Source of the DNA: Octopus sinensis | Taxonomy: Eukaryota | NCBI RefSeq assembly: GCF_006345805.1 | Contig: NC_043005.1 | Span: 105,152,001-105,216,000 of the forward strand | Direction of reading: 5' to 3' | DNA: 64,000 nucleotides | Shown here: piece after piece, positions 9,278 to 63,314 of the stretch | Numbering within the stretch: position 1 is the stretch's first letter | Layout of the letters: the number at the start of each line of letters is the position of its first letter | Made by a program: the position numbers and the translations under genes | The notes under the pieces: generated by a model | The model's database searches: none | The model's input: only the letters and a program-made list of their open reading frames with translations | Told to the model about the DNA's origin: nothing

Positions 9278-9435
9278 AATTGTCTGTTGTATTGCTTAAA
9301 AGTGATAAGAGAGAGAAATTGAAAGGAGACATGTGAGAAGGGAGCGAGTGAGGATCGAACATAGAACACAACAAATAGATAGATAGATAGATTGATACAT
9401 ACATATACACATACATACATACATACATACATACA

Positions 9436-9965: not shown

Positions 9966-10009
<44 letters not shown>

Positions 10010-10406
10010 GGCGCAGGTGTGGGTGTGTGTTAAGAAGCTTGCTGACCAACCACATGGTTCCGGGTTAAGCCCCACTGCATGGCACCTTGGGTGAGTGTTT
10101 TCTACTATGGCCTGGGGCCGACCAAAGCCTTGTGAATGGATTTGGTAGACAGAAACTGAAAGAAGCCGGTTGTATGTATGAATGTATGTATGCATTTGTG
10201 TGTCTGTGTTTGTCCTCTCACCGTCGCTTGACAACCGGTGTTGGTGTGTTTACGTCCCTGTAGCTTAGCGGTTCGGCAACAGAAACCGATAGAATAAGTA
10301 GTATGCTTACAAAGAATAAGTCTTGGGGTCGTTTATTTGAGCTAAAATGTAGTGCTCCAGCATGGCCGCAGTTAAATGACTGAAACAAGTAAAAGAATAA
10401 AAGAAT
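10010..10406 (+). mobile_element. tRNA-headed CORE-like SINE family B with internal microsatellite
   Basis: tRNA-like head, GGCACCTTGGG-type CORE-like block, tail CCAGCATGGCCGCAG...GAAACAAGTAAAAGA; many copies in the window. Confidence 0.9.
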
Positions 10407-10759
10407 ATATGTATGCATATGTAAACGAAGATACATCTGAGTCGTGTCAGTTTGATAAAACATTGTAGAAACATTTCTGTTGTATGGATAATTGTATTGG
10501 AGAGAGAAGTAACCGAATTCCTCAATTTCCCTAATTAGATGTTATTAATAGTTGTAGATATACTATTATATTTACATTGATGATCCCACGAGAAAAGCAT
10601 ATACAGCACGATGTCTTAATGAAAATACCGCAGCCATTATACATATGTCATAAAAAAAACATTAGTCATGATTTTGCTCCTGTTTAAATGTGGTGAATGT
10701 AAAGGAAAACCACTTCCTATGATCTCCCCAAAACAATTTGATTGAACATGGAAGGTGAT

Positions 10760-14220: not shown

Positions 14221-14597
14221 TAAAGTAGCTTGCTTACCAACTACATGGTTCCGGGTTCAGTTCTACTGCGTGGCACCTTGGGCAAGTGTCTTCTACTATA
14301 ACCCCGGGCCGACCAATGCGTTGTGAGAGGATTTGGTAGACAGAAACTGAAAGAACTCCGTAATATATACATATATGTTTATATGTATGTGTTTGTGTGT
14401 CTGTCCCTCCAATATCGCTTGAGAACCGATGCAGGTATGTTTACGTCCCCGCAACTTAGCGGTTCAGCAAAAGATTCCGATAGAATAAGTAGTAGGCTTA
14501 CAAAGAGTAGGTCCTGGGGTCGATTTGCTCGACTAAAGCGATGCTCCAACAAGGCCGCTGTAAAACGACTGAAACAAGTAAAAGAATAAAAAGAATA
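14221..14597 (+). mobile_element. SINE family B (slightly 5'-truncated)
   Basis: High similarity to 22574-23007. Confidence 0.9.
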
Positions 14598-14768
14598 GAG
14601 GATTATATATATGTATGTGTATGTGTGTGTGTGTATATATATATATGTATACATATATATCTACATTTATATATATATATATATATTAATAATAAATATT
14701 AGGGAATAAATCCAAACTTACAGGGAAAAATCAGATTTAGGATTGAATCCAATTTATAGTAAAATATT

Positions 14769-18577: not shown

Positions 18578-18795
18578 AGGCGGCGAGCTTGCAGAATCGT
18601 TAGCTAGTCGGATAAAATGCCTAGCGGCATTTCTTCTTGTTCTTTCAATTTTGATTTCAAATTCCGTCGCGATGGACTGCACCACTCATCCCTTTCAAAG
18701 TTCAATAAAATAAGTACCAGTTGATTATAGGGGGTCGATGTAATCGGCAATGTCTTCTACAATTTTGAGTCTTGTGCCTATTAGAAAAAAAACTA
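18578..18795 (+). mobile_element. Degraded SINE family A (alternative tail)
   Basis: ggcggcgagcttgcagaatcgttag head; tail ttgtgcctattagaaa. Confidence 0.75.
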
Positions 18796-19127
18796 TTATT
18801 ATATTTCTCTTTGATGTTGTACGCTATTGATATTTTCGTAGTCAATTCTCATATAAGACATATCACAGAATCGGGAGATTTAATTCAGAATTACATTCTG
18901 CAATATTTAGTTATTCGCTTTTACTCTCTGAGTGCAAATCCTCCGGAGGTCGATTCAACTTAATATCATTCAATTAAGTTCTCCCTGCAAAATATATAAT
19001 AGACAATAATAATAAATTCTGGATATATACATTCATGCACACACATATTGATGTATATATGCATGTGTATCTTTGAATGCATACATAAGATATATGCATA
19101 TATACGACTCATGTAATCAATAATCCG

Positions 19128-19319
19128 TAGCCGTATTTCGTCTGCCGTTACGTTCTGAGTTCAAATTCCGCCGAGGTCGACTTTGCCTTTCATCCTTTCG
19201 GGGTCGATAAATTTAGTACCAGTTACGCACTGGGGTCGATGTAATCGACTTAATTCGTTTGTCTGTCCTTGTTTGTCCCCTCTATGTTTAGCCCCTTGTG
19301 GGTAGTAAAGAAGTAAAGA

Positions 19320-19322
<3 letters not shown>
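19128..19322 (+). mobile_element. SINE family A, 5'-truncated
   Basis: Near identical to 9090-9275. Confidence 0.9.
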
Positions 19323-22263: not shown

Positions 22264-22573
22264 ATATATAATGTTTATTCCTAAGTGTATACACTGTATA
22301 TATGTAAACACACATATATTTACACACATACATATATCTATGCATAAAAACACACAGTTATATTCTTGTGTATGTGTGTATTAAGTTGTGTATAAAGTAA
22401 AACAAATATAGATTTTCGATGGCGGTTTTCTTTTCCGTTTGTGAATTTAAATCCCATTAAATGAGTGGTCTGATGACTGTCCATATGGCAGAAAACTTGA
22501 AGTAATCACCACAGAATATGTGGAGTCAGTATTCTTTTATATACCCACTATGCCTATATATATACATATGTAT

Positions 22574-23007
22574 GGGCGTAGGAGTGGCTGGGTGGTAAGT
22601 AGCTTGCTTACGAACCACATGGTTCCGGGTCCAGTCCCACTGCGTAGCACCTTGGGCAAATGTCTTCTACTATAGGCTCGGGCTGACCAGGGCCTTGTAA
22701 GTGGATTTGGTAGACGGAAACAGAAAGACGCCCGTCGTAGATATGTATATATATGTGTACGTGTGTTTATGTGCTTGTGTGTCTGTGTTTGTCCCCCCAA
22801 CATCGTTTGACAAACGATGCTGGTGTGTTTACGACACCGTAACTTAGCGGTTTGGCAAAAGAGACCGATAGAATAATTACTAGGCTTACAAAGAATAAGT
22901 CTTACAAAGAATAAGTGCTGGGGTCGATTTGCTCGACTAAAGGCGGTGCTCCAGCATGGCCACAGTCACATGACTGAAACAAGTAAAAGTGTAAAAGAGT
23001 AAAAGAG
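22574..23007 (+). mobile_element. SINE family B, full length
   Basis: Head ggcgtaggagtggct, CORE-like block, (GTAAAAGA)n tail. Confidence 0.92.
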
Positions 23008-23144
23008 CATATATATATACATCAAGTGCTTTGGTTTTTCTGGGAATTCCCTTTAAAGTACAAGGAATAGCTAAGATTTTTTGATTGCTATTTCTAAACT
23101 TCGGTATGTGGTGTTGTAAATCGTTGCTGAACCCTAATTATATA

Positions 23145-26640: not shown

Positions 26641-26820
26641 ACAAACACACACACGCGATCGCGAGTGCAAAACCACACACACACACTCACAAATTCACAC
26701 AAGTATAGACAAACAGTTAAATAGATAGATAGATATTATACACACAAACGCACGCGCGCACTCACATACACACACGCGAAATATTACTGGCAGAAGCAGT
26801 GTTAATGGCTTTCTTTATAT

Positions 26821-27232
26821 ATTTCTTTACTACCCACCAGGGGCTAAACACAGAGGGGACAAACAAGGACAGAGAAAGGGATTAAGTCGATTACATCGAC
26901 CCCAATGCGAAACAGGTACTTTATTTATTGACCCCGAAAAGATGAAAGGCAAAGTCGACCTCGGCGGTATTTGAACTCAGAACGTAGCGGCAGACGAAAT
27001 ACCTCTTTCTTTACTACCTACAAGGGGCTAAACATAGAGGGGACAAACAAGGACAAAGGGATTAAATCGATTACATCAACGCCAGTGCGAAACTGGTACT
27101 TAATTCATTGACCCAGAAAGGATGAAAGGCAAAGTCGACCTCGGTGGAATTTGAACGCAGAATGCAACGACAGACGAAATACCACTAAGCATTTCGCCTG
27201 GCGCACTAACGTTTCTGCCAGCTCGCCGCCTT
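26821..27232 (-). mobile_element. SINE family A, internally duplicated (dimeric) copy with one TSD
   Basis: Two head-to-tail units; flanking atgg(c/t)tttctttatat at 26805-26820 and 27233-27248. Confidence 0.88.
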
Positions 27233-27570
27233 ATGGTTTTCTTTATATCCTACATAAAGCGGTGAAGTGCGGACACTCCAAAACCTACGTGCTCTAACAG
27301 TCCCGCCACAGGTGCTGGATGATTTCTGGTCTGCTACCGATATGCGTGTGCTTCCTAGCACTAAACGTCTATATGAGAAGATTTCTCAAGCAAATATCGA
27401 AGTATTACGGCGTTCTAACAATACAGTCACGCTAAGTAGGATATAAAAGTAGCCACACACATGCGCACACACACATATACACACACATGTATCTACATAT
27501 AATGTGATGGATATGTGCAGGTACATGCTTTTGTACATGTATGTATGCATACGTGCATGTATGTACATAT

Positions 27571-29725
27571 GTTAGTTAGTTAGTTAGTTAATTTGGCTCA
27601 AAAGCAAATAGCAAGGCCATGTAGGGGGACATGGAGTTAAGTACAGGGTGGTGTTCATGTAAAGAGTTCAGGCCACTTGAGGTCAAGGGAGGCTTTGAAC
27701 AAAGCGGTCGTCGGCATCTTCACCATCTCGTCTGGCAGCTTGTTCCACGGATGCGCAACCCGGACGGAGTCCTCTCCTTCGATTGAGATGAAATCGTCGC
27801 AGGTAGAGCTTTTCGGAATGACCCCGCAGCTGACGCTCTGGAGCAAGAGTGAAGAACAGCTCTTTCGAGAGGTTACACTTTCCACTTATGATGTTGTGGG
27901 CGAGAATGAGATCACCACGGCGGCGGCGTTTTTCTAGAGAATAAAGGTCGAGCGTCCTCAGCCTTTCTTCATAGGACAAATTTTTGAGACCATGAACCAT
28001 GCGGTTAGCCAGCTTCTGGACTCTTTCGAGATGCTGTATGTCTTTGAGGAGATAAGGAGAAGAGGCTTGAATCCCGTACTCACCAGCGTGACATAGAGTG
28101 GTAAGAATATGGCTGCTGTGAGCATTCCGAATGACCGTCGAATCAAGAACAGAATTCCGCGTGCTTTGTTGGCAGCATGGACGCACTGGGCCGAAGGCGA
28201 AAAGGAGGAATCACCAACATACCCAGGTCTTTTACCTGATCGGTCCTCTCCAGCAGCAGACGACCCGGCTCGAAATCAAGTTGAGTTGCAGGAGGAGAGC
28301 CAACAGGCAGATGACAGCACTTTGACACGTTCAGACACAGGTCCCATTCGTTAGACCACCTCCAAATTTGGTGGAGGCATCGACGAAGATCCTCTATATC
28401 ACCGCGAGGAGCGACCAGTTTGACATCGTCGGCAAATAGAAGGGTGTGTTGCGTGAGGTCGCCGGGCAAGTCATTTATGAAGACTAAGAAGAATAAGGGC
28501 CCAAGCACTGAACCTTGAGGCACGCCACTGTTCGCACTGGAGACGTCGGACCGCGAACCATTAACTTGGACTTGGAAGGAGCGATCTGAGAGGAAGGCAC
28601 CAACCCATCGTACAATATCCGGATGGAAACTATATGCTTGAAGCTTGACAAGTAATAGGCGGTGGTTTACCGAGTCAAAAGCTTTGGCAAATTCCAATAA
28701 AACGATGTCAACAGCATCACTATCATCGAGGATGCGCGTCACCAATTCTTCCATTACCAGTAAGTTGGTCAAGCATGATCTCTTCGGCACGAAGCCGTGT
28801 TGGGAATCAGAGATAGAGGCTGTGTTTTGGAGGTGGAGCATCATACTTTTCTTAAGGATGGTTTCGAACATCTTGCTGATTATTGATGTAAGGGAAACCG
28901 GTCGGTAGTTAAGCGGGTCTTCGCGGCTCCCTTTCTTGAAAATTGGGCAGATTATCGCTGTCCTCCAGTCCGCAGGTATAACACCCGTCGCCAATGACAT
29001 ATTGAATAGACGTGTTAAGGGCTCGCAGATGACCGGAGCCAACGCTTTGATAACCCGTGGGTGTATGCCGTCAGGGCCGTGACACTTGTTGACATCGAGG
29101 CATTGAATAACACGTTTGACTTCGTCCCGCGTGATGACCAATCGAAGCATTGGAGGTACCGATCTATCAAATGGAGGGGGTTCACGACCATCATCTTGTT
29201 TGATAATTGTTGAAAAAGCCTCGGCAAATAATATGTATGTATGGACGTTATCAAAGAAGCTTGAGAGGCGGTTGGATGGAACCTATACCCGCCTCCTTAT
29301 GAGAGCTCAAAATCTCTCGTGGAAGCGCCATCCAACCAAAATGCAAATATATGGGAAACTACCACCTGTGTCATCTCTTGTGAAAGGTAGGAGAGTCCAG
29401 TTTGCTGGACATTGTTGTAGAGCTGAAAAAGAGGTAATTTCTACTCTTCTCTGGAAGCCATCTACTCGCAATACCAGAGAGCGCACTCTCCTACCCTGAT
29501 GTAATCTCCAGGGATACAGGCATCCAGCAACAGAACCTCCGTAATGCCATGATGGACTGTGAAGTCTGGCGTAGCATGGTAAATTCCACTGTCTCGACCA
29601 CGGTCGAACAATGATGATGATGATGTATCGAAGTTTGCTATGATTTTGACACTGGATATTTCGTCCCGAGTTGACGCTTGATTTTGACAGTACGATGGAG
29701 ACGGTCAATGAGGTAACGCTGGAGT
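27571..29725 (-). mobile_element. 5'-truncated CR1-group LINE (ORF2 reverse transcriptase, frameshifted), interrupted by an RTE fragment
   Basis: Motifs NYRPVSLTS, QHGF, FAKAFDSV, GVPQGSVLGP, LFADD, SYEERL..L.LYSLEKRR.RGDLI; (TAAC)n tail at ~27571-27590. Confidence 0.92.
29238..29625 (+). mobile_element. RTE-group LINE 3' fragment nested in the CR1-group element
   Basis: WTLSKKLERRLDGTYTRLLMRAQNLSWKRH...RRVQFAGHC and (ATG)n tail; opposite strand to the host LINE. Confidence 0.8.
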
Positions 29726-30187: not shown

Positions 30188-30259
30188 CCTTAAATCCTTA
30201 AAAATGTTTTAGCCCGAAGGCCGCGGCCATGCTGGGGCACCACCGCTGAATGAGCTACA

Positions 30260-33200
30260 TTAATTTGTGAATCCAACTCTGATACATGGCACTTGATCAA
30301 CAAGGGAGTTCGATGCTGCTGCCCGCATCCGCGTCTCCTGTCGTGAGGTAGGTTCATCTGGGACTCCCAACAAGAAGAGATCCAGTTTAGTTTTAAAGAA
30401 ACCAACATCCACACCATGTAAGTCTCTCAGGCATTTAGGGAGGATGATAAAGAGCTGTGGTCCTCTGAAACCCAAGCTGTTGCAGTATCTGGACCTGTAT
30501 TTTGATGGTGATGTTGGAATCCTTGGCACCACGCAGTGGCGCCCCGTTCTGCGGTTGGGGTAACTTTGAATGCCAAAGTTTGGGACAAGACCCTCCAGGA
30601 TTTTCCAGATGTATATCACCGCATATCTCTCCCACCTCCGCTCTAGGGAGAAGAGGTTTAATACCTTCAGTCTTTCCCAGTAGCTGATATTTTGCATTGA
30701 GACGATTTTCTTTGTGTAGCTTCTCTGAATTGCTTCGAGTTCTGCTGTTAGTTTTATATTCTGTGGTGACCACAGTTGGGAGCAGTAGTCCAAGCGGCTG
30801 AGGACGAATGTTTTCCATAGGACCATCAGTGTCTCCTTCTCTCTTGTTCTGAAAGTTCGGAGAATCCATCCAGCCAGCCGTCTGCATTTTATCACCAGAT
30901 TAGCAATATGCACTTGGAAAGATGCATCATTGCTCATGTCAATGCCCAGGTCACGCACTGATTTTGACTCAGAGATTGCAATTCTTTCTGGGCCAGTGTA
31001 TCCAGTCTTCACGTCATTTACCTTTGTGTGCCAGTAGCGCAGGGCCTGGAACTTACCTGCATTAAACTGCATGTTGTTGTCCTCAGCCCACCTGTATATT
31101 GTGTCCAGCTCATGTTGCAGATGCGCAATATTTTCAGGGTTTTGTATTGCGTGGGAGACTTTTGTGTCATCTGCATAGCTAGCAAGGGTGGTCATCGTAG
31201 CAACTGAAGGCATGTCTGAAAGGGCCACTATGAACATCAGTGGCCCCAAGACAGTGCCCTGTGGGACACCGCTTGCTATTTGCGTTTCCTTGGAGGTGGC
31301 TCCATTGCTCACTACTGCCTGTTTTCTGTCTTTTAGGAAGTTGTGCAGCCACTCTCCAAGTTTTCCGCATATGCCGAGACCACGCAGTTTGTGACAGATC
31401 ATACCATGGTCGACCTTATCAAAGGCTTTTGCAAAGTCGAGATATATTACATCCACATTTGAGCCACTTAGTAGCTGTTTCAACACCCAGTCATAGTGTT
31501 GCAGGATCTGTGTTAGGCAGCCTCTACCTGGTCGAAATCCATGCTGGGTGTCAGACAGCAAGTCATTTTCTTCAAGGAACATGATTAGTTTCTTACGGAC
31601 TATTCGTTCCATGACTTTGCTGATGTGTGAGGTCAGAGAGATAGGCCTATAATTTTTAGCATCTGCTCTGCTACCTCCCTTATGGATAGGGCATATTACC
31701 CTCTCTTTCAATTTGACTGGGAGCTTACCACTTGCAAGAAAGCTCTGAAAAGAAGCTGTAGCGGTTTTGCAAGGGCTCGTTTGCACGATTTGAGAAGGAT
31801 CGCTGGGAATCCATCAGGTCCAGCAGCTGAGTTTGTGTCAATCTCATCTATGGCTTGTGTGATATCATCATCTTCGATGTTGATGTACTCAATTTTTGCC
31901 TCTTTGGCCGCAGGTAAAGTGGCAAAGAATTCTTCTGGGTTGTTTACTTGCCTGTGTCCTAGAGGTGTAGTGAACACACTTTGGAACTGTTCGTTCAGTA
32001 TTTCACTTAACCTCGTGGGATTTCCTGTGAGAGAGCCATCTTTTTGGAAGCTAGGTCCTATTCTCTGGTGCACTGTGGCTGTCTCTTTGGCAAACTTAAA
32101 GAAAGCTTTAGGGTTTGATTTTATATTTTCTATTACCCAAGCTTCTTTATCTGCTCTCTCCTTTTCATGGGACTGATGTAGACTTTTCTGTTTCCATTAG
32201 CATTCTTTCGAGCCGAGACTTCTCACCACTTTTGGTGTGCTTGCTCAGGCGGTTCGCAATCCTTGTCCGTCGTCTCATAAGAATCCTCCTTTCTCTAGAG
32301 ATCCTGTTTTTGTTCTTGTGTGTGCTGGCCCTGCACACTGGGACATATTTGTCACATATGGCTTGTATTATGGACATGAAGTGTTTGTGTTTCATGTTTA
32401 TGTCCGGTGTGGAGAGACATTCAGCCAATCCTGTTTGAGGATCTCTTTCTCAATCAACTTCCAGTTGGCTTTATGAAAGTTTAAGTTGGAGAGATGGTGG
32501 ATGCTTCGTATAGGCTGTGTGTCTACGGGGGCTTTTGTTCCATACATAGACAGCTCTATTATGTTGTGATCCGAGATCATTGTCGGCATCACATTAACAT
32601 TATGGATAATATCCATATTGTTTGTGAAGCAGAGATCCAGTATATTATCTGCCCTTGTTGGTTGCAGAACTATTTGCTCCATGAAAGAGGCATTTGTGAG
32701 ATGGAGCAGGGACTCCACCTGTGCCTGCTGATGGTGTGTCATCCCTGGGAGCATCTGCCCCCCAGGCCATTCCATATTGGGGAGGGTAAAGTCACCCATG
32801 AAGAATACACTCACCAACCTTTCAAGGTTGGTGAGGACTTCTCCTATTTTTGTTAGGCAGTCTTCAAACATGCCTGAGTGTTTTGGGGCATCTGGTGGGC
32901 GATATGTAGTGCATATGACGATATTCAGTTGTCTTATGTGTACAATTTGAGTTTCACATACTGAGTTTGAATATGACAGCAGGACCTGGGGCGTGAGGTC
33001 ATCTCGGATGTACATTGCATCTCCACCATGGCTGCTCCCTTTTCTATCTGTGCGTATGACTGCATATTGCGGCATGTGTATTTCTGCATCACCTATATCG
33101 GGTTCAAGATGCGTTTCTGTGAGTGCCATGCATATAGCTTGATTGCATGTCACAAGGTCTCTCAGGAATGAGATTTTCCTTTTACAGTTTCCGCGCAGCA

Positions 33201-33267
33201 GCCCTCCTACATTCAGTAGAAATAATCTTGTGGTGTGTGTGTTGGTGTTGGTGTCTGTGGTGGCCAT
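30260..33267 (-). pseudogene. LINE ORF2 (APE endonuclease + reverse transcriptase), broken into four ORF pieces
   Basis: Collinear ORFs 32398-33360, 32165-32428, 31708-32073, 30260-31786; probable start ATG at 33267. Confidence 0.9.
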
Positions 33268-33673
33268 CCTGCATCTGTTGGTGGTGGCCTTATGTGGTGG
33301 TAGTTCCAGCTTTGTGCTTGTAGCCAGGTCAGCTGCTGAACAATTTTTTGTGCCATGCACAAAAAAGATTGCTGTTCAGCTGCTGCCCTTCTTACATCTG
33401 GGTGAAGCTGGCCATTTGTTGGGTTACCACGCACCACATCTGCATATCGTCTTTCAGGAGTGGTCAGTGCGCTTTTTTCCCTTCTTTTATATTTTTCTTT
33501 TTGTTCTTTTTGTTCTCCCCGAGGGAGGGACCCCTGTCTCGCGTCCGTGCGGTTTTGGTGGGGCCTCTGATGTGCAAAGCGACAGTTTGCACCTTCAATG
33601 CCGTACCAGCAGTCCCCCTTCAGGTAGAATTTGCAGATGTTTCTTTCTTTGCCCTTATAGTTCTTGCTGGGGT

Positions 33674-33674
<1 letters not shown>
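33213..33674 (-). pseudogene. LINE ORF1 C-terminal part with CCCH zinc finger (5'-truncated at TA repeat)
   Basis: Open frame from 33674 to stop 33213; CKFYLKGDCWYGIEGANCRFAH (C-X7-C-X8-C-X3-H) at 33635-33570; overlaps the ORF2 start. Confidence 0.8.
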
Positions 33675-33704
<30 letters not shown>

Positions 33705-33711
<7 letters not shown>

Positions 33712-34013
33712 ATACTCTGTTTTTCTGTTGTAAAAATGTTTTTTCCGTTTTCGTTTCTCGTTGAGTTCTACGTCTAGTTGTGGTGTCCTGTACTCACGTA
33801 CATATATTTATATATGCATGTATATATACGTGTAGATGTAGGTACGTACATATATGTTTGTATGTATGCATATATTTTATTTATTACACTATTTTTGACA
33901 GCGCCCTCGCGTCGATTCGATTCGATTCGTTCGCTTCGTTCCGTTCTTATTCTCCCAGTACTGTTTTATATATAATTATGACGCGAAATTCCTTATCTCT
34001 TTGCTTTACCTTC

Positions 34014-34053: not shown

Positions 34054-34770
34054 TCCTCATCTCTCTCTCAGCCGCTTGTCTTCCTCTATCTCTCTCTCTC
34101 TTACTCCTCCTCATCTTTGTCACTGCTAGCCAAAACTACTTACTTTTACACGCAGCCTTCAAACTGTAAAGACACACATTTGTGTTCCCATGCGCTGCCA
34201 GAATCTCTTCCGTCTAAGCCAGAAAAAGGCCTTTTCGTTTGTTTTCTTGTTTGTTTTCTTGTTTATTATTTTTATTTCTCGTATTGTATTTTCTTGTACA
34301 TGTATTTTTATCTTGTATTATATTTCGTAGTTTTATTTGTATCGTTTTTACGTCCTGTTTGTGTTACATTTTTTTCTTCCTTGTTTTTACCCCTCTGCGA
34401 AGTAATTTTATTTTAATTCTCTCGCAGAAAGGACTAGTTTGGCGAGTCGTGTTCTGTCTTGCCTTCGAAACACGCTGGGGCCGACATGGAGACAGCTGAT
34501 GAAGGGGATTTTTCCTTGTGTAGTATGTCCTGTACTGTGTTTTTCTGTTGTAAAAAAATGGTTTTTCCGTTTTCGTTTCTCGTTGAGTTCTACGTCTCTG
34601 TTTTTCTGTTGTAAAAAAATGGTTTTTCCGTTTTCGTTTCTCGTTGAGTTCTACATCTAGTTGTGGTGTCCTGTACTCACGTATATATATTTATATATGT
34701 ATATATACATGTAGATGTAGGTACATACATATATGTTTGTATGTATGCATATATTTTATTTATTACACTA
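33705..34770 (+). mobile_element. Second ORF-less Penelope-LTR-like element (related subfamily of 23196-24175)
   Basis: Direct repeats ~33705-33892 / 34525-34770 (internal ~60-bp tandem duplication); CT-rich then T-rich interior; hammerhead cores. Confidence 0.65.
34439..34507 (+). ncRNA. Candidate permuted/split hammerhead ribozyme, copy 2
   Basis: cgtgT/Acacg stem III; GUU 34451-34453; stem I ctgtct/agacag; GAAA 34467-34470; perfect CTGATGA 34496-34502; stem II cttc/gggg after an extra A. Confidence 0.6.
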
Positions 34771-35011
34771 TATATATACCTGTGAATATCAATACAGAGA
34801 TAGGGTAGCGATAGGAGAGTAAATGGGGAGAGAAGGGAGGAGAGGAAGAGAGGTAGAGATGGGGAAGGGAGGTGAGAAAGGATAGTGGAAGAAGCAAACA
34901 GACTTATATATATAAAAAGTGAGAGAAAGAATGAGTGTGAGGGATAGATAGAAAGGTAGATAGATAAATAGATAGACAGATGAATGGATAGATAGATAAA
35001 TAGATAGATAA

Positions 35012-35070: not shown

Positions 35071-36583
35071 TAGATAGATAGATAGATAGACAGACAGATG
35101 GATGGATAGATAGATAGATTGAACAATCTCAGCCATCCTTCATAACTCGAATCTCACCAACACACAGACACATTGTTGAACAGAGATAAGGACACAGACA
35201 GGCAGACATAAAACAGACAAACTCATCCTCCCATCGACTCTAAGTCAAAGGGTCGGAGCTGGAATTGTTTGGTGCTTTTCCAAAAGAGATCTTCATTAAA
35301 CTGTCCCGATTGATTGTTGTGTGTACGGCAAGGTTATATCTCAGTAGTTGTATCAAATGTTAATGTCCTAGCTTTCTGATTTACTCGGATGAAACGATCG
35401 CGTTACTAATTTGATGAATATTACTGATCCGGAAAGCTACGTTGCTGAAATTAATTGCTCAAACTCAATTAAGAATCGAATTAATTCGACTTTGGAACAA
35501 AGTCACAATTAATGGTAAATACTTTTGTAATATAGTCTTCATTGTACGATGGTTATATTTATATGTATTTGTCTATCTATGTATGTGTATGCATGTATAT
35601 ATGTATGTATGTGTGCATATAAGTATGTGTGTGTGTGTGTACACAGACATACAAAATCGAAATATATGCACGAACATATATATGTATGTATATATACGTC
35701 TGCACATATGATCGTGTATGTATGTGTGCATATATATTTATACGTGTGATTTCATATGTATATTTGTGTATGTATTCTTTGTGTGTATATATGTATATAT
35801 ATATATATATGCATACATACATATGTGTGTATACAGAGAGAGAAAGAGAGAGAGAGAGAGAAAGAGAGAAAAGAGAAACAGACAGACAGACAGACATACA
35901 GAGAGTGAGAGAAAGAGAGATTAATACTTATAAGGGAATATATCGACGTATGTATCGTTATATGGCATTATTTTACTATACGTATTTATGTATGTATGTA
36001 TGTATTTATGTATGTATGTGTGACTATATACATACATATATATATATATATTTATTTACCCATTCACACGTTTGCATATACATATATATATATACACACA
36101 TACATATACAAATATACACTCTCCCGTGCTCTATCTCACTCTCCCGTGCTCTATCTCACTCTCCCTACCACACCACTCATGCAGAAACGCGCATGCATAC
36201 ATACAAACGTGCAATAACACCCACTTAACCGGTGATGATTCAATGACTGACCATTTGAGAATCTTTAAGTGGGATGAAATAAGGATTAAATCCTTATAAA
36301 TACTTAAGAATCGAACCTAATAATGACACAAAAGTGTTCATAATTGATTAAATGAAGTCACATCAGTTTCTCTCTACCATCAGTAATTGTCTTGCATCTT
36401 CTGTAAAATCTTTTACTGACTACAAACTCCTCTACTTTTCCGATTACAAACGTGGAAGTCCGGTCTTCGGTTAACCCCGCTGCGGCTTTGCCGATATCTG
36501 TTCCTGTGTTAGTAAGGCATTTGTAGTTTACTGTTTGAAATTCACATGTATCATCAGACGCTGGCTAAAGAGTTACACGGACA

Positions 36584-36813
36584 TAAGGCGGCAAGCTGGC
36601 AGAATCGTTAGCACGCCGGGCAAAATGCCTCGCGGTATTTCGTCTGCCACTACGTTCTGAGTTCAAATTCCGCCGAGGTTGACTTTGCCTTTCATCCTTT
36701 CGGGGTCGATTAAATAAGTACCAGTTACGCACTGGTACTTATAATCGACTTAATCCGTTTGTCTGTCCTTGTTTGTCCTCTCTGTGTTTAGCCCTCTGTG
36801 GGCAATAAAGACA
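36584..36813 (+). mobile_element. SINE family A, full length with 18-bp TSD
   Basis: taaagagttacacggaca at 36566-36583 and 36814-36831. Confidence 0.93.
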
Positions 36814-36878
36814 TAAAGAGTTACACGGACAAATACGCACACAAACTCATATAGTCACACACGCTCACATTTACACTG

Positions 36879-37295: not shown

Positions 37296-37676
37296 GGAGG
37301 CGCAATGGCCCAGTGGTTAGGGCAACGGACTCGCGGTCATAGGATCGCGGTTTCGATTCCCAGACCGGGCGTTGTGAGTGTTTATTGAGCGAAAACACCT
37401 AAAAGCTCCACGAGGCTCCGGCAGGGGATGGTGGTGATCCCTGCTATACTCTTTCACCACAACTTTCTCTCACTCTTACTGCCTGTTTCTGTTGTACATG
37501 TATTTCAAGGGGCCGGCCTTGTCACTCTCTGTGTCACGCTGAATATCCACGAGAACTACGTTAAGGGTACACGTGTCTGTGGAGTGCTCAGCCACTTACA
37601 CGTTAATTTCACGAGCAGGCTGTTCCGTTGATTCGGATCAACCGGAACTCTCATCGTCGTAACCGACGGAGTGCTT
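37296..37676 (+). mobile_element. tRNA-headed SINE family C
   Basis: A-box TGGCCCAGTGG, B-box GGTTTCGATTCC; second copy at 46703-47061 (-). Confidence 0.9.
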
Positions 37677-38285: not shown

Positions 38286-38686
38286 CGTCTATCTATCTGT
38301 CTATATATCTATATATCTGTCTATCTGTCTGTCTATCTATCTACACACACACATACGTACGCACGCGCGCACACACACATACACACTCACAAACACACAC
38401 ACACACATTTATATGTCCTCCGGTCATTTCAGTTATGTAACCACACACGTATGCATCTTGGACTATTTTCTTCTTTCCTGACCTTTTCTGTTTTCTCTTC
38501 ATGACGAAGAGCCAAGCTAGAAACGTTACACTCAACCTTTTTTATCCCTCTTAAACTGAGCGTCAGCGTCTTACATTTTCTGTTTACGTCCTTTTAACTT
38601 TTGTTGCTTTCATGTTTATTACCGATTTCATTATGTACGCCCCCTTGTAAATTATAATACAGTTATCGTTCAAAACATAACACATA

Positions 38687-38860
38687 GGCGTAGGAGTGGC
38701 TGTGTGGTAAGTAACTTGCTTACCAACCACATGGTTCCGGGTCCAGTCCCACTGCATGGCATCTTGGGCAAGTGTCTTCTGCTATAGCCCCGGACCGACC
38801 AATGCCTTGTGAGTGGATTTGGTAGACGGAAACTGAAAGAAGCTTGTCGTATGTGTATGT
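38687..38860 (+). mobile_element. SINE family B 5' half
   Basis: Matches the family B head up to the internal TA repeat. Confidence 0.88.
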
Positions 38861-38914
<54 letters not shown>

Positions 38915-39457: not shown

Positions 39458-39530
39458 GCATGTATATGTGTATATATGTATATGTTTGTATATGCCTGTA
39501 TATATGTATATGCGTGTATATATGTATATG

Positions 39531-39632
39531 CGTGGCATCTTGGGCAAGTGTCTTCTGCTATAGCCCCGGGCCGACCAAAGCCTTGTGAGTGGATTTGGTA
39601 GACGGAAACTGAAAGGAGCCTGTCGTATATAT

Positions 39633-39718
<86 letters not shown>

Positions 39719-40400
39719 TTGTCTGTGTTTGTCTCTCTAGCATTGCTTCACAACCGATGCTGGTGTGTTTACGTCCCTGTCACTTAGCGGTTCGGCAAAA
39801 GAGACCGATAGAATAAGTACTGGGCTTACAAAGAATAAGTCCCGGGGTCGATTTGCTCGACTAAAGGCGGTGCTCCAGCATGGCTGCCGTCAAATGACTG
39901 AAACAAGTAAAACAGTAAAAGAGTAAAGAGTTTGCGTGTCTGTGTTTGTCCCCCAAATATCGCACGACAACCGATGCTGGTGTGTTTACGTCCTCGTAAC
40001 TTAGCGGTTCGGCAAAAGAGACTGATAGAATAAGTACTAGGCTTACAAAGAATAAGTCTTGGGGTCAATTTGCTCGAGTAAAGGCGCTGATCCAGCATGG
40101 CCCACACACACACACACATATATATATGTGTGTGTGTGTGTGCGTGTGTGTTGCGTGTGTGTGTGTGTGTTGTGTGTGTATGTGTGTATATATGTTTGTG
40201 TGTCTATGTTTGTCCCCAACATCACTTGACAACCGATATTGGTATGTTTACGTCCCCGTAACATAGTGGTTTGGCAAAAGAGACCGATATAATAAGTACT
40301 AAGCTTACAAATAATAAGTCCTGGGGTCGATTTGCTCGACTAAAGGCGGTGCTCCAGCATGGCCCCAGTCATGAAACAAGTAAAAGGAGTAAAGGGAGTA
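39531..40400 (+). mobile_element. Cluster of SINE family B pieces (one near-complete copy plus two repeated 3' halves)
   Basis: 3' module repeated at ~39720-39930, 39936-40102 and 40199-40400. Confidence 0.88.
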
Positions 40401-40646
40401 TATGCAGCCAGCGGGAATGCATGCCGTTCGGTTAGAGGGTTGGAGTGACACGCCCAAAAGACTTCCTATTGTGGCACCGGTGTCTTCTGCCAGCCAGCAC
40501 AACTGCGACTTATGCAATGAAATGCACAAATCTTTGAATCGATCTCAAGAGTCGTATCAGGGCCTAACATTGCTTTATCATTGCCTAATTTGAATGATTC
40601 AACCCAGCAATGGCTTTGCTAGTATACTAGAAAGCAGCAGCAGTTG

Positions 40647-41515: not shown

Positions 41516-41757
41516 GGATAGATATACCATGTGCATACGCATAAATGCATGCACAGACATATGTCCGTGTCTGTGTGTGTGTGATTGTTGTGTGACTGTG
41601 CACGCGCGAGTGTCGTGTATGTGTGTGCACGTGTGTGTACGTGCGTGTGCGTGTGTCTATATAAGTATGTGCATGGGCATACTTTTCGAATCGGAGTTCC
41701 TTATAACTGTAGTTATTTAGAAGAATTTCACAATAGCGAAGCATAAACAACTGAAAT

Positions 41758-41986
41758 GGTATAGGAGAAAATCGGCATTTTAAGCTTCATAAACAGGCAA
41801 TTTGTATGCGAAGATTGTATGATCGAGTAACGCTTTGAAGCTGGGAGCGTAGTAGTGTGCATACATCTTTATATCTGTATGTATTCTTCAGAAACGCAAG
41901 TATGAACTAATGTATATATGTGTATAGATGCATATATGTATGCGTGTAAGTATATAGATATCTATATCTATCTATCTATCTATCTG

Positions 41987-42039
<53 letters not shown>

Positions 42040-42062
42040 ATGTATATATATATATATATATA

Positions 42063-42104
<42 letters not shown>

Positions 42105-42256
42105 CAAAGAGTGAGAGAGAGAGATACAGACACACATACATAAATACAGATAAGCATATATACTTATATACACATAGATAATCGCGCGCGCACGCACGCA
42201 CTCGCATCTGTACGCACACATACATATACACGTGGGATTACGTTGCTATTACTATG

Positions 42257-42299
<43 letters not shown>

Positions 42300-42436
42300 A
42301 TATATATGTATGTATACATTGTGTATGCATCTGAATAATTGGTTGCATATGTATGTATATTAATGGGAAGCCTCTATGCATGTCGGTACGTGTAAATATA
42401 TGTCAGTATTATCGCATATAAATGTCTTGTAAATGT
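41758..42436. repeat. Source segment of a ~680-bp local inverted duplication
   Basis: Reverse complement recurs at 44446-45104. Confidence 0.92.
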
Positions 42437-44445: not shown

Positions 44446-45104
<659 letters not shown>

Positions 45105-45231
45105 TATTTCGTATATCTCTTTTATTTAAAAGAGTTTGATTCGGTTTCATGCAACTGAAAATTCTGTAAGAAGCCTGCATATTGCCAAATCAAAATGTTT
45201 TAAATAATAACAAAAACAACAACAATAATAA

Positions 45232-45444
45232 TATTTTCTACTATAGGCACAATGTCTGAAATTTCGGCGGAGGGGACTGGTCGATTACATCGTTCCCAGT
45301 GTTTCGTTGGTACTTAATTTATCGACCCCGAAAGGATGAAAGGCAAAGTAGACCTCGGCGGGATTTGAACTCAGAACGTAAGGACGGACGAATGCCGCTA
45401 AGCATTTTGCCCGGGATGCTAACGATTCTGCCAGCTCGCTGCCT
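45232..45444 (-). mobile_element. SINE family A with alternative 3' tail
   Basis: Head and central block as family A; tail ...ttgtgcctatagtagaaaatattatt. Confidence 0.85.
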
Positions 45445-45474
45445 TCACACAACAATAATGATAATGATAATACA

Positions 45475-46673: not shown

Positions 46674-46702
46674 ATATATATTATATATATATATATATCA
46701 TA

Positions 46703-47061
46703 GCACTCCGTATGTTACGACTGCGAGTATTCCAGTTGATCCGATGAACGGAACAGCCTCCTCGTGAAATTAACGTGCAAGTGGCTGAGCACTCCACAGA
46801 CACGTGTACCCTTAACGCAGTTCTCGGTGAGATTCAGCGTGACAGAGTGTGTGGCCTTTTGATATACAGGTACAACAGAAACAGGAAGAAAGTGTGAAAG
46901 TTGTGCTGAAAGAAAAGGGTTCGTTACCACCCCATGCCGGAGCCTCGTGGAGCTTTAGGTGTTTTCGCTCAATCAACATTCACAAAGCCCGGTCTGGGAA
47001 TCGAAACTGCGATCCCACAACCGCGAGTCCACTGCCCTAATCACTGGGCCATCACGCCTCC
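46703..47061 (-). mobile_element. SINE family C
   Basis: Reverse complement of 37296-37676. Confidence 0.9.
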
Positions 47062-47075
47062 ACCATAATATATAC

Positions 47076-47233
47076 AGGAGTGTCTGTGTGGTAAGCAGCT
47101 TGCTTACCAACCATATGGTTCCGGGTTCAGTCCCACTGCGTGGTACCTTGGGCAAGTGTCTTCTACTGTAGCCTCGGGCCGACAAAAGCCTTGTGAGTGG
47201 ATTTGGAAGACGGTAACTGAAAGAAACCTGTCG

Positions 47234-47264
<31 letters not shown>

Positions 47265-47455
47265 TTGTCCCTCCAACATCGTTTGACAACCGATGGTGGT
47301 GTGTTTGCGTCCCCGTAACTTAGAGGTTCGGTAAAAGAGACCGATAGAATAAGTACTAGGCTTACAAAGAATAAGTCCTGGGATCGATTTACTCGACTAA
47401 AGGCGGTGCTCTAGCATGGCCGCAGTAAAAGGACTGGAACAAGTAAAAGAGTAAA
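47076..47455 (+). mobile_element. SINE family B, full length
   Basis: Matches 22574-23007. Confidence 0.92.
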
Positions 47456-47519
47456 GGGTGCATATATATATAAATATACATATACATATACATATAAATA
47501 TATACATATACATATACAT

Positions 47520-49225: not shown

Positions 49226-49296
49226 GTGAGGGGGTGGGGGACAAAAACACACACACAAAAACACACGCGCACACGCACATACTCACAATAATATAT

Positions 49297-50052
49297 AGTT
49301 GTGTGGTAAAAGGCTTGCTTCTCAACCATATGATTCCGAGTTCAGTCCCACTTGATGGCACCTTGGGCCTCAGGCCGACCAAAAACTTGTGAGAAAATTT
49401 GGTAGACGGAAACTGAAAGTAGCAAGTCGTATGTGTATGTGTATATATATATATATTTGTGTGGTCACCACACAATATAAAACTAACAGCAGAACTAGAA
49501 GCAATTCAGAGAAGCTACACAAAGAAAATCGTCTCAATGCAAAATATCAGCTACTGGGAAAGACTGAAGGTATTAAACCTCTTTTCCCTAGAGCGGAGGC
49601 GGGAGAGATATGCGGTGATATACATCTGGAAAATCCTGGGGGGTCTTGTCCCAAACTTTGGCATTCAAAGTTACCCCAACCGCAGAACGGGGCGCCACTG
49701 AGTGGTGCCAAGGGTTCCAACATCACCATCAAAATACAGGTCCAGATACTCCAACAGCTTGGGTTTCAGAGGACCACAGCTCTTTAACATCCTCCCTAAA
49801 TGCCTGAGAGACTTACATGGTGTGGATGGGTTTCTTTAAAACTAAACTGGATCTCTTCTTGTTGGGAGTCCAGATGAACCTACCTCACGACAGGAGACGC
49901 GGATGCGGGCAGCAGCATCGAACTCCTGTTGATCAAGTGCCACGTATCAGAGGTGGATTCACAAATTAGTGTAGCTCATTCAGCGGTGGTGCCCCAGCAT
50001 GGGCCGCGGCCTTGGGCTAAAGCATTTTTAAGGATTTAAGGATTTATATATA

Positions 50053-50110: not shown

Positions 50111-50346
50111 ATATACATATATATATACAGATATATACATATATATAAATATATATATATATATATTTCGCTTGACAACCGATGCTGGTGTGTTTACGTC
50201 CCTCTAAAATAGCGGTTCGACAAATGTAACGATAGAATAAGTACTAGGCTTACAAAGTATATAAATCGTGGGGTCAAGTTGCTCGACTAAAGGCCGTGCT
50301 GCAGGTTGGCCACAGTCAAATGACTGGAACAAGTAAAAGAGTAAAG
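49297..50346 (+). mobile_element. SINE family B copy split by a LINE insertion in its internal TA repeat
   Basis: 5' half 49297-49450, 3' half 50167-50346. Confidence 0.8.
49459..50046 (+). mobile_element. 5'-truncated copy of the CR1-group LINE at 30186-33675
   Basis: WSPHNIKLTAELEAIQRSYTKK... and a near-identical 3' UTR and tail. Confidence 0.95.
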
Positions 50347-50356
50347 TGAGAGTGTG

Positions 50357-50400
<44 letters not shown>

Positions 50401-50484: not shown

Positions 50485-50597
50485 TTTCTGCTGCTTTTAA
50501 ATAAAGCATATTACTCTACCTCTGGCATTTGAGTACTCTTTTTTCCACCTTGTTTCACATTTATGTGTTTACTCCGGTATATATATATATATACTAT

Positions 50598-51000
50598 TTT
50601 ACTCTTTTACTCTATTACGTGTTTCAGTCATTCGACTGCGGCCATGCTGGAGCACCGCCTTTAGTCGAGCAAATCCACTCCGGGACTTATTCTTTGTAAG
50701 CCCAGTACTTATTCTATCGGTCTCTTTTGCTGAACCGCTAATTTTACGGGAACGTAAACACACCAGCATCGGTTGTCAAGCAATGCTAGGGAGACAAACG
50801 CAGACACACAAACACACACATACATATATATATATATACATATATACGACAGGCTTTTTTCAGTTTCCGTCTACCAAATCCACTCACAAGGCATTGGTCG
50901 GCCCGGAGCTATAGCAGAAGACACTTGCCCAAGGTGCCACGCTTTGGGACTGAACCCGGAACCATGTGGTTGGTTAGCAAGCTACTTACCACACAGCCAC
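50598..51000 (-). mobile_element. SINE family B, full length
   Basis: Reverse complement of family B. Confidence 0.92.
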
Positions 51001-51464
51001 TATATATATATATGTATATGTATATATGTATAAAATTATATATGTATGCTTGTATGTATTTATATGTCCTCACACGCATATATGCATACAAGCACATACA
51101 TGTATATGTATATATGTGTTTGTATTAAATAGACGAAGAAACATATAAAGAGAAACGGAGAGAGAGAGAGGGGGAGAGAGGAAGGCAAAGGCGAGCGAGA
51201 GAATGGAAGGGAGAGAGAGAGAGAATGAACCGGTAAGATAGAGAGTTGGATAGAATTACGATGATAAAGTGTGAAAGAAAAATAGGTCCAGGAATTGAGG
51301 AGAACATAGAGAGATGAAGGTGAGAGATAATGTGAACTGAAGAGGATAAAATATATAGAATAAAGATAATATGGGAGTAAGGGGAGATAATCGATGATAG
51401 ATGAGGTGGCGAGGATTAGGGAAACGAAGAGATATACAAAGGTGGAGATAAATATAATACATCG

Positions 51465-60734: not shown

Positions 60735-61560
60735 AGTGAATTTTAGGGCTTATAAATCTATTATTTTCCTATCTTTCCTTAATACCGGTTTCCATATGCT
60801 ATTCATATCTGCACTCGGTCTGCTTTGGAGATTGTTGTGTCCTAGCATATGTGCTGCTTCTTTTAGTTTTCGTATTTTCCAGTGGTGTTCTCTGTCTATT
60901 ATTTTAACTTCATCCCACGGGAAGGTAGTCTCTATTTGTCCATATATTATCAGCTATACTCGATTTATCAATATCTCCTCGTGTCACAGCTTTGCGATGT
61001 TCGTCTACCCTTATTTTGAGAGGCTAGCATGTTTCGCCTTTATATATCCTAACACAGCTGCATGGGATGGATTACATGCAGTTTTTGGTCATATTCTCCT
61101 CTATTGGTGGTTTTACTCGAAGGAGATATTTGCGAAGTGTTGTATTACTCTTGAATATTGTCCTGATGTCATATGGCCGCATATCTTTTGTATCTTTACG
61201 GAGAGGCCTTTCGCATAGGGTAGACAGACTGTGGACAGTTTATTGGCTTCATCTTCTCTTTTCTTCATAATTGGAGTGGATAGAATGTTTTTAGGGTAGT
61301 TGTTGCTTAATAGATTGTTACTGAGCTTGATCATTTCTTCGTGGTGGGTATCACGATCGCTACTTATATTCTTTGCTTGATGTTTTAGGCAATGAACAAT
61401 CTGTCTCTTTACACTATGGATGGTGGGAATTGAAGTTGAGGTATCGTCCAGTGAAGGTCGGCTTGCGGTATACGGATATCCTGAATCCATACTTTGTGCG
61501 TGTTATTAATACGTCCAGAAATACTAGCTGATTGTCTTTTTGCTTTCCATTGTGGACTGT
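60735..61560 (-). mobile_element. Penelope-like element 3' fragment (RT thumb + GIY-YIG), frameshifted
   Basis: FLDVLITR, VYRKPTFTGRYLNFNSHHP, LPYAKGLS, SIPCSC..IYKGET..LKIRVDEH. Confidence 0.9.
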
Positions 61561-61939
61561 ATGGATGGCTTTATTGAGTTCACATGATCTAACAGCACTT
61601 GGACATAGACACAGATAAACGTACAGAGAGGGAGGTGGTGGGAGAAAGAGTGACAGAGACACAGCGAAGGCGGAGAGGGAATGAGAGTGGAAGCTGTCAA
61701 ACGTCGTTATAGAGAGAATGTGGCGGGAAGGAAGGAAAGAGAGAGTTTGAGGAAGACAGGATGATATCCGAAAGTGAGAAACGACAAACACTTGTCAAAG
61801 TCTGGGCTTTGTTGCTCTTGTAACCGCACCTTTCCAGTCCCATTAATAATACTAATAATAATAGAAATAGTGTAGTTGATGGCGCTAATAATAATAGTAA
61901 CAACAATCATAACAATAAAAACTTCGTTTCGATCTCGGA

Positions 61940-62354
61940 GGACAACCCCAACAGAATTAAATTTTTGTCTAGTAATTCTAAGATTAAGAATTCTATTTAC
62001 CAGTGTAGAATTTCTTCCGGTACCGATGTCTTTTCCTATATAGGAGCGTCCACTTCCCAGTTATCCAAGAGAATTTCTAACCATTATTCAACATTCAGGG
62101 ATAGTAAAAAACGACATAGTACAGGGCTAAGTAAATTAGTTTGGCGTCTTAAAGACAACAATATAAATTTCAAGTTAGATTGGTTCATACTGTCTGTATC
62201 CATTCCTTTTGATAAGGGCAGGAGATTTTGTAACATTTGTAACTCTCAACTCTTCCATATTCTCTTCTCTAAGGTTCCCCTAGTAAACACACTCATAGAA
62301 AAATCATACAAATATAAACACTGGCAGAAACATACCTTCTACTCATATAAATGA
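61940..62354 (+). mobile_element. Penelope-like GIY-YIG endonuclease fragment (Naiad-like signature)
   Basis: IYQC...YIG...KRISNH..TF...TGLSKLVWRLK...W.I...CNIC. Confidence 0.8.
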
Positions 62355-62921
62355 TAACGATAGTCACTGTGGTTTGAACAATTAGCTTTACGTCAACCCC
62401 ACTTCTATAGCGAAATTCTTTCCTAAGCCTTCGAACATTCTTTCAATCAACGTACCCTTCCCTCACCACTTGTTCCCTACCTATTATTCCTTTAACCCTT
62501 CTCTTCCTACTATCTATCTTTGACGTCAATTCTTCTAACGGTTTTTTAAAAAACACTCATTATCGTTTTGTTTACCATGTAGGCAGTCATCGAAATTTTT
62601 GTTTGTCTTGTTGTCGAAAGAGGCTCCCTTTCTTTCCTGATGAGAAGATTGCATAATGCACCCTTTATTCCTTTGGAATGAAAACATGTTGTCTTCGAAA
62701 CATATGTCGAGAGTAAAGGAATTTTGTTAACATCTTCGTTCGACTCCATTCTTTCATTTATTCATATACAACACACAAACTTCTGCACATGAACCCGGAG
62801 TTTCTACCCTTGGATAGGTCGCTTCAACCGTGTTTCTGACGTGAATTTGCTACCCAGCTTTCGGTTAAACGAATTTTCCATGCTGACGATAAACATAGGA
62901 TAATTCATTCACCTATGTATA

Positions 62922-62975
<54 letters not shown>

Positions 62976-62987
62976 ATATATATATAT

Positions 62988-63038
<51 letters not shown>

Positions 63039-63078
63039 ATTATATATATATATATAGATATATATATATATATATATG

Positions 63079-63259
63079 GCTTCCGGCCATATCACGTTGA
63101 AAGAACCGGTTCTCGTCCGATCACCGAAGTTAAGCAACATCGAGTCTAGTTAGTACTTAGATGGGTGACCGCTTGGGAAACCTAGGTGTTGTAAGTATTC
63201 CCTTTACAGCGGTGGTGCCCCAGCATGGCCGCGGCCTTCGGGCTAAAGGATTTTTAAGG

Positions 63260-63263
<4 letters not shown>
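63079..63263 (+). mobile_element. 5S rRNA-derived SINE (SINE3-like): full 5S head 63079-63198 plus LINE-derived tail 63207-63263
   Basis: Head matches animal 5S (ggccatatcacgttgaaa...ccgatcaccgaagttaagc...ttagtactt.gatgggtgaccgc.tggga); 41 bp identical to the LINE 3' UTR at 30208-30248. Confidence 0.88.

Positions 63264-63314
<51 letters not shown>

What the first reader, a model, noticed from the sequence alone, without database searches (positions are those of the whole stretch)
63079..63263. 5S rRNA-headed SINE carrying the exact 3' tail of the CR1-group LINE in this window
Seen: a complete ~120-nt 5S-like head lacks a T4 terminator (attcccttta) and runs into cagcggtggtgccccagcatggccgcggccttcgggctaaa (63207-63247). 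These 41 bp are identical to the LINE 3' UTR (30208-30248, minus), and the same tttttaaggattta end follows. Established: SINE3 elements are 5S-derived, use the internal type 1 Pol III promoter and borrow CR1-group tails; they are much rarer than tRNA SINEs. Inference: a minimal, young SINE3-LINE pair, or a one-off template-switch chimera.
Basis: partly seen in the sequence, partly recalled or inferred. Interest (0 to 1): 0.72.

Follow-up and report, generated by a model that had tools for sequence, protein, structure and literature searches.

The report
5S RNA-headed retroposon with LINE tail
A 185-base piece of probably octopus DNA joins a whole 5S ribosomal RNA copy to the end signal of a neighbouring retrotransposon; it is most likely one copy of a small parasitic repeat of a known but uncommon kind, though its copy number could not be counted.

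Summary
63079-63197 is a full-length 5S rRNA sequence (Rfam 96.1 bits). After a short linker come the last 57 nt of a CR1-like LINE: 41 nt identical to the copy at 30208-30248(-), 55 of 57 overall. The element and that copy both sit inside (AT)n. The host is probably an octopod.

The linker reads as a 5S precursor end (short trailer, TTT) plus one extra A. The join falls 2 nt before the tail's first predicted hairpin. This fits a template jump by the LINE enzyme.

Family or one-off could not be decided: the window holds one copy and no eukaryotic genome could be searched. A family is favoured (about 0.65) by base rate, a 57-nt tail, a sense full-length head, and uncharacterised 'SINE/5S' repeats in automated Octopus libraries. 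Against: a T5 terminator inside the tail, a possibly mis-called T run, and head-versus-tail divergence that is not significant.

SINE3 is a known class. My nine paper searches found no description from a cephalopod. New member of a known kind.

The parts
62920..63077 (.). 5' flanking (AT)n microsatellite, the likely target; gives TATATA at -28 (63051-63056)
63078..63078 (+). one extra G before the 5S start; possibly non-templated (inference)
63079..63199 (+). [quoted passage not shown]
   Evidence: box positions from PMC6204057 passages
63200..63206 (+). linker CCCTTTA, not LINE-derived; read as 5S trailer + TTT + one extra A (inference)
   Evidence: T-rich stretch a few residues past bivalve 5S genes
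63207..63263 (+). 57-nt LINE 3' tail: predicted hairpins at 63209-63232 and 63233-63244, T5 at 63251-63255, terminal AAGGATTT unit
63264..63303 (.). 3' flanking (AT)n
30188..33674 (-). partner LINE copy 1: CCCH zinc-finger frame, APE endonuclease, RT, 72-nt 3' UTR; coding region broken over several frames; true 5' end uncertain
49460..50045 (+). partner LINE copy 2, 5'-truncated, 96.6% identical to copy 1, nested in the internal (AT)n of an abundant SINE

Best explanation
This is one copy of a minimal 5S-headed SINE (SINE3 type: head + LINE tail, no body) that uses the CR1-like LINE of this window. Shown: the head, the shared tail and the (AT)n on both sides. Inferred birth: the LINE reverse transcriptase copied the last 57 nt of LINE RNA, added one base and jumped onto the 3' end of a 5S precursor ending in UUU, which removed the 5S terminator. 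Inferred life cycle: Pol III starts from the internal A/IE/C boxes, reads through T3 into the tail and stops at the T5 (about 175 nt) or beyond. The LINE protein binds the tail hairpins and inserts the copy into (AT)n by target-primed reverse transcription.
For: (1) Full-length sense 5S head and 57-nt LINE tail. Bivalve SINE-LINE shared tails span 35-61 bp (PMC11481361 passage). (2) The join lies 2 nt before the base of the first predicted hairpin; stringent LINE-SINE pairs share a 3' stem-loop (PMC3747384 passage). (3) The element and LINE copy 2 both have (AT)n on both sides; a looser test, (AT)4 within 25 nt on both sides, is met by 2.9% of 20,000 random positions, 1 of 7 CORE-like and 0 of 8 Deu-like SINE copies. 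(4) Base rate (inference): a 64-kb window holds a copy with probability 0.0002 for 10 genomic copies, 0.02 for 1,000 and 0.21 for 10,000 (2.7 Gb assumed). (5) Human 5S/L1 one-off chimeras are about 10.5% of 253 and are frequently antisense and truncated (PMC11838501 passages), unlike this one. (6) The O. vulgaris library lists 4 'SINE 5S' consensuses covering 9.83 Mb; SINE/5S is 0.030% and 0.039% of repeats in O. bimaculoides and O. vulgaris. (7) 3 of 34 head pairs are broken, against 1-2 differences in 57 tail bases.
Against: Only one copy was seen. The T5 at 63251-63255 lies before the last repeat unit, so a Pol III RNA may lack the end the LINE needs. The T3 may be a mis-called longer run: 3 of 5 indel events between the two LINE copies are run-length changes, and a fourth T would make a terminator. 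The head-versus-tail excess is not significant (Fisher p 0.33 and 0.66), and no cephalopod 5S gene was available for comparison. Tail folding is not stronger than shuffles (z -1.2 and -1.5; +1.1 for LINE copy 2), and covariation did not exceed shuffles. The one recently active 'SINE 5S' family in O. vulgaris averages about 6 kb per insertion, so at least that label is not this element. The base-rate argument assumes the window was not chosen for this feature.
Confidence: 0.65

Rival explanations
1. One-off (or rare recurrent) chimeric retrocopy. The same template jump happened at this site, from LINE RNA onto a cellular 5S precursor, and the product never spread.
For: Every linker base is explained by a single jump onto a precursor 5S RNA. 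One copy in the window. The T5 would cut off the last repeat unit. 5S/LINE chimeras are a known class, and U6/L1 chimeras are described as not self-propagating.
Against: Low chance of meeting such a rare object in one window. The join sits at the hairpin base rather than at an arbitrary truncation point. Sense, full-length 5S is not the usual human pattern, although that pattern is for L1, not CR1.
Confidence: 0.28
2. Two separate insertions: a 5S retropseudogene landed in (AT)n, and a LINE copy cut down to 57 nt later inserted right at its 3' end.
For: The LINE appears to favour (AT)n. The linker ends in TA. The head looks somewhat more diverged than the tail.
Against: It needs an extreme truncation and an insertion at the first base of the run; no AT units remain between the parts.
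Confidence: 0.05
3. A working orphan 5S rRNA gene, or an assembly artefact joining unrelated reads inside microsatellite.
For: High Rfam score over the whole model; both flanks are low-complexity.
Against: Three broken helix pairs, no spacer or tandem unit, and a clean LINE tail ending in the LINE's own repeat unit. The junction itself is in complex sequence.
Confidence: 0.02

Closest known systems
SINE3 / AmnSINE1 / OS-SINE1 (5S-headed DeuSINEs of vertebrates)
   Same: 5S head; 3' tail shared with CR1-named LINEs such as CR1-4_DR (table passage in PMC3747384).
   Different: Those carry a Deu central domain. Here only 7 nt separate head and tail, and the host is probably a mollusc.
HaSE3, CoeSINE5, SINE-1_Pmo, Ped-1, MEG (other 5S-headed SINEs)
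   Same: 5S head, independent origins.
   Different: HaSE3, CoeSINE5 and SINE-1_Pmo have RTE-derived parts. This tail is from a CR1-like element. A 2024 review lists 5S SINEs from reptiles, insects, fish and mammals only.
5S rRNA/LINE-1 and U6/LINE-1 chimeric retrocopies (human)
   Same: Small RNA joined 5' of a LINE 3' end in one insertion; full-length sense orientation as in U6/L1.
   Different: Human 5S/L1 chimeras are frequently antisense and truncated, and the partner is L1.
Uncharacterised 'SINE/5S' consensuses in Octopus repeat libraries (PMC13282606, PMC8967140)
   Same: Same label, probably the same group of animals.
Octopus tRNA-derived SINEs OK/OR1/OR2 (Ohshima and Okada 1994; seen only as cited)
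   Same: An abundant CORE-like family in this window ends in an alignable hairpin motif, so this tail type already serves SINEs here.
   Different: Different head and body, diverged tail and another end repeat. Its identity with OR1/OR2 was not tested.

Membership tests
SINE3 (5S-derived SINE, SINEBase definition) | Head similar to 5S rRNA over at least 60 nt | tested here: met
   Rfam RF00001, model 1-120, 96.1 bits; definition
SINE3 (5S-derived SINE, SINEBase definition) | Short (<1 kb), interspersed, not tandem | tested here: met
   185 nt; no other 5S piece in 64 kb
SINE3 (5S-derived SINE, SINEBase definition) | 3' tail shared with a partner LINE | tested here: met
   55 of 57 nt to copy 1, 55 of 58 columns to copy 2
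SINE3 (5S-derived SINE, SINEBase definition) | Intact internal Pol III type 1 promoter (box A, IE, box C) | tested here: inconclusive
   All three positions are present without gaps. The match to consensus is judged from recall. One broken helix pair (63139) falls in box A.
SINE3 (5S-derived SINE, SINEBase definition) | [quoted passage not shown] | not testable with these tools
   No eukaryotic genome collection; two scans of prokaryotic genomes gave 0 and say nothing on this
SINE3 (5S-derived SINE, SINEBase definition) | Substitutions shared among copies but absent from the cellular 5S gene | tested here: inconclusive
   3 of 34 pairs broken; excess over tail not significant; one copy and no host 5S gene to compare
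SINE3 (5S-derived SINE, SINEBase definition) | Transcribed by Pol III from genomic copies | not testable with these tools
   No RNA data
DeuSINE-type SINE3 (zebrafish SINE3, AmnSINE1) | Central Deu domain | tested here: not met
   7 nt between head and tail
5S/LINE chimeric retrocopy | Junction unique in the genome | not testable with these tools
   Unique within the window only
5S/LINE chimeric retrocopy | Single insertion shown by a target-site duplication | tested here: inconclusive
   Both flanks are (AT)n, so a duplication cannot be told apart
5S/LINE chimeric retrocopy | Usual human pattern: 5S antisense and truncated | tested here: not met
   Sense and full length here; the pattern is a tendency and is for L1
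5S rDNA gene | Intact helices, T-run terminator next to the gene, tandem units with spacer | tested here: not met
   T3 only, with the run-length caveat
CR1 group (partner LINE) | APE endonuclease before RT; short 3' UTR ending in a short tandem repeat, no poly(A) | tested here: met
   PF14529 and PF00078; 72-nt UTR; the criterion is recalled
CR1 group (partner LINE) | RT phylogeny places it in the CR1 clade rather than L2, CR1-Zenon or others | not tested
   No clade-labelled references were available; solved-structure hits were only L1, R2 and a group II intron RT

The most novel reading that the evidence does not exclude
An undescribed molluscan SINE3, caught near its birth as bare head plus 57-nt tail. 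Its partner LINE targets (AT)n and so places a TATATA at about -28 of every new copy, where bivalve 5S genes carry a TATA-like element. The G at 63249, which neither LINE copy has, puts an AAGGATTT unit just before the T5, so a T5-terminated RNA would still end in the LINE's repeat unit. Both points would help explain why 5S-headed SINEs arise rarely and when they succeed. Both are speculation from one copy.
Probability: 0.2. Interest if true: 0.62.

Novelty: new member of a known kind. Interest (0 to 1): 0.38.

Why it matters
If it is a family, it extends described 5S-headed SINEs to cephalopods and gives a minimal SINE-LINE pair with a named partner. It would allow a direct test of whether upstream sequence supplied by the target site limits 5S-type promoters in mobile elements. 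It would also mean 5S gene counts in such genomes are inflated by SINE copies. If it is a one-off, it is an ordinary fossil of the step by which such SINEs are thought to arise.

Tried and rejected
Exact scans of 185,579 prokaryotic genomes for the junction and for the tail gave 0 each; these are uninformative for a eukaryotic repeat. The repeat finder was swamped by microsatellites. ARAGORN found 0 tRNA genes, and the 150 Rfam e-value matches listed (of 260) held no tRNA, so the tRNA origin of the two abundant SINE families was not confirmed. Hairpin covariation over 11 tails (3 of this LINE type, 8 of the abundant SINE) did not exceed shuffles (275 of 500 for pairs changed on both sides; 37 of 500 for cells); 78% of cells paired against 23-45% for slid controls, but the structure was derived from these sequences and LINE copy 2 was partly misaligned. 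The shorter-protein search gave no Octopus-named hit among 120 listed, so the species is unknown. The Atlas search returned nothing. No cephalopod 5S gene sequence was found in the library. The SINEBase supplement could not be read. Rejected: functional 5S gene (broken pairs, no array); DeuSINE membership (no body).

Full report
Observation. The sequence at 63079-63263 is as described. Rfam finds one match at gathering level in the window: 5S rRNA at 63079-63197, model positions 1-120, 96.1 bits. The stretch 63207-63247 equals the reverse complement of 30208-30248 and extends by no base either way; about 7e-23 such matches are expected by chance. Over the whole 57-nt tail the match is 55 of 57 to this LINE copy. 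No other 5S-like piece is in the window.

Partner LINE and host. Copy 1 (30188 to about 33674, minus) has a weak CCCH zinc-finger match, an APE endonuclease (PF14529) and an RT (PF00078). It is broken across several frames. Its 3' UTR is 72 nt, of which the element carries 57. The two LINE copies differ by 13 internal substitutions and 5 indel events over about 585 nt; 2 further substitutions and 2 gap columns at the alignment ends were left out. The only species-named hits among 120 listed are Argonauta hians proteins at 62-63% identity. The shorter-protein search added crustacean names at 48-51% and no Octopus name. The window holds two abundant SINE-like families, one with the CCTTGGG motif given for CORE domains; tRNA-Core and tRNA-Deu SINEs dominate octopus but not squid repeats. 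An octopod host is therefore inferred, species unknown. CR1-group status rests on layout and recall; no phylogeny was run.

Anatomy. From 5' to 3': (AT)n; one extra G; the 5S head; CCCTTTA, which is not LINE sequence; the LINE tail with two predicted hairpins, a T5 and one AAGGATTT unit; (AT)n. The join lies 2 nt before the base of the first hairpin. The hairpins are predictions with modest support: z -1.2 for the element, -1.5 for copy 1, +1.1 for copy 2, and -2.0 to -3.8 for three tails of the abundant SINE. That SINE's tail aligns with few gaps and can form the same two stems, but covariation did not exceed shuffles. In the head 3 of 34 Rfam pairs are broken, or 4 of 39 under a pairing scheme I set by eye. 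Against 1-2 tail differences this is not significant (p 0.33 and 0.66). Without the host's 5S gene the breaks cannot be proven to be mutations.

Target. The element and LINE copy 2 have (AT)n on both sides; copy 2 sits in the internal AT run of an abundant-SINE copy. Copy 1 has AT at its 3' end and an AT run just upstream of the zinc-finger frame, but its true 5' end is uncertain. As controls, (AT)4 within 25 nt on both sides was seen for 2.9% of 20,000 random positions, 1 of 7 CORE-like and 0 of 8 Deu-like copies; some control copies are truncated. A shared preference for (AT)n is likely, with the caveat that AT runs can grow beside insertions. A target-site duplication cannot be read in this context.

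Mechanism (inference). Bivalve 5S genes have a T-rich stretch a few residues past the coding region and a TATA-like motif near -28 (PMC6204057). The linker therefore reads as a precursor 5S end plus one extra base. That is what an end-to-end template jump with non-templated addition would leave. Such activity is reported for a non-LTR RT (PMC8857657, search listing only), and a template switch to 5S RNA has been proposed for other SINE heads. This birth is the same whether the product spread or not. If it spread, Pol III would read through T3 and stop at the T5, and the LINE protein would recognise the tail, as for stringent pairs.

Family or one-off. For a family: the base rate; a tail length inside the 35-61 bp range of bivalve SINE-LINE pairs; the join at the hairpin base; a sense full-length head, unlike the frequent pattern in human 5S/L1 chimeras; and automated Octopus libraries that list SINE/5S repeats (4 consensuses, 9.83 Mb in O. 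vulgaris; 0.030% and 0.039% of repeats). If all 9.83 Mb were 185-nt copies that would be about 53,000, near one per window, but nothing shows that they are this element. Against: one copy only; the T5 precedes the last repeat unit; the T3 could be a mis-called longer run, since 3 of 5 indel events between the LINE copies are run-length changes; and the recently active 5S-labelled family averages about 6 kb per insertion. SINEBase requires at least 100 copies and separates SINEs from RNA pseudogenes on that basis; this test could not be run. I put a family at 0.65 and a one-off at 0.28.

Comparison and novelty. SINE3 is an established class with several independent origins. A 2024 review lists reptiles, insects, fish and mammals. 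Nine searches showed no paper describing a cephalopod 5S-headed SINE or its partner; the library lacks most subscription papers and Repbase Reports. What I saw: PMC13282606 main text parts 1-2 of 3 and its whole supplement, not its Zenodo library; PMC8967140 passages and supplement rows; PMC4494074 part 1 of 5; passages only of PMC10886601, PMC4758252, PMC3531059 (supplement unreadable), PMC11838501, PMC5786205, PMC3747384, PMC4120745, PMC10946416, PMC6472339, PMC11481361, PMC4824008 and PMC6204057. Kapitonov and Jurka 2003, Ohshima and Okada 1994 and Kajikawa and Okada 2002 were seen only as citations. The unseen Zenodo, Dfam, Repbase and SINEBase sequences may already hold this element. Metagenome and viral collections stayed unchecked.

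Verdict. The feature is real and works like a 5S-headed SINE built on the local CR1-like LINE. Membership of SINE3 is met on structure and untested on copy number. New member of a known kind; interest 0.38, or about 0.6 if the target-supplied TATA and terminator-adjacent repeat ideas hold.

Noticed in passing
window 49460-50045(+), inside SINE halves 49284-49459 and 50165-50378: Second copy of the partner LINE, nested in the internal (AT)n of an abundant SINE; suggests a CR1-like LINE that prefers (AT)n. Search one search listed no paper plainly on this.
   Followed up: partly
window 10006-10423, 14223-14615, 22555-23022, 38683-38872, 39529-40404, 47061-47477, 50579-51024(-): Abundant ~400-nt SINE-like family (about 68-95% pairwise) with a CORE-like motif, an internal AT/GT microsatellite and a tail alignable to the LINE's hairpins; possibly OR1/OR2, not tested.
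   Followed up: partly
window 3323-3540(-), 9027-9280, 18578-18746, 19122-19321, 26814-27235(-), 36582-36819, 45280-45463(-): Second SINE-like family of ~240 nt, about 71-95% pairwise, judged Deu/Nin-like from recall; two copies lie head to tail at 26814-27235.
   Followed up: no
window 33213-33674(-): Frame upstream of the LINE endonuclease has a weak CCCH zinc-finger match (E 2e-4); the word CCCH does not occur in the ORF1 survey PMC4120745.
   Followed up: partly
window 33707-33890 and 34496-34780: Direct repeats of about 60-90 nt units, about 880 nt apart, upstream of LINE copy 1; may be its 5' UTR or another element.
   Followed up: no
window 27683-29282(-) and 29107-29499(+): A second, different RT-encoding LINE fragment (PF00078, E 1e-30) and an overlapping LINE-like fragment on the other strand.
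   Followed up: no
window 61113-62354: Frames that look like Penelope-type retroelement fragments (recalled motifs); no Pfam match.
   Followed up: no
window 41753-42436 and 44446-45110: Near-identical inverted arms (97-99%) about 2 kb apart; possible recent DNA transposon or foldback element.
   Followed up: no
window 37297-37675 and 46702-47060: A 379-nt dispersed repeat pair at 83% identity in opposite orientation, not classified.
   Followed up: no
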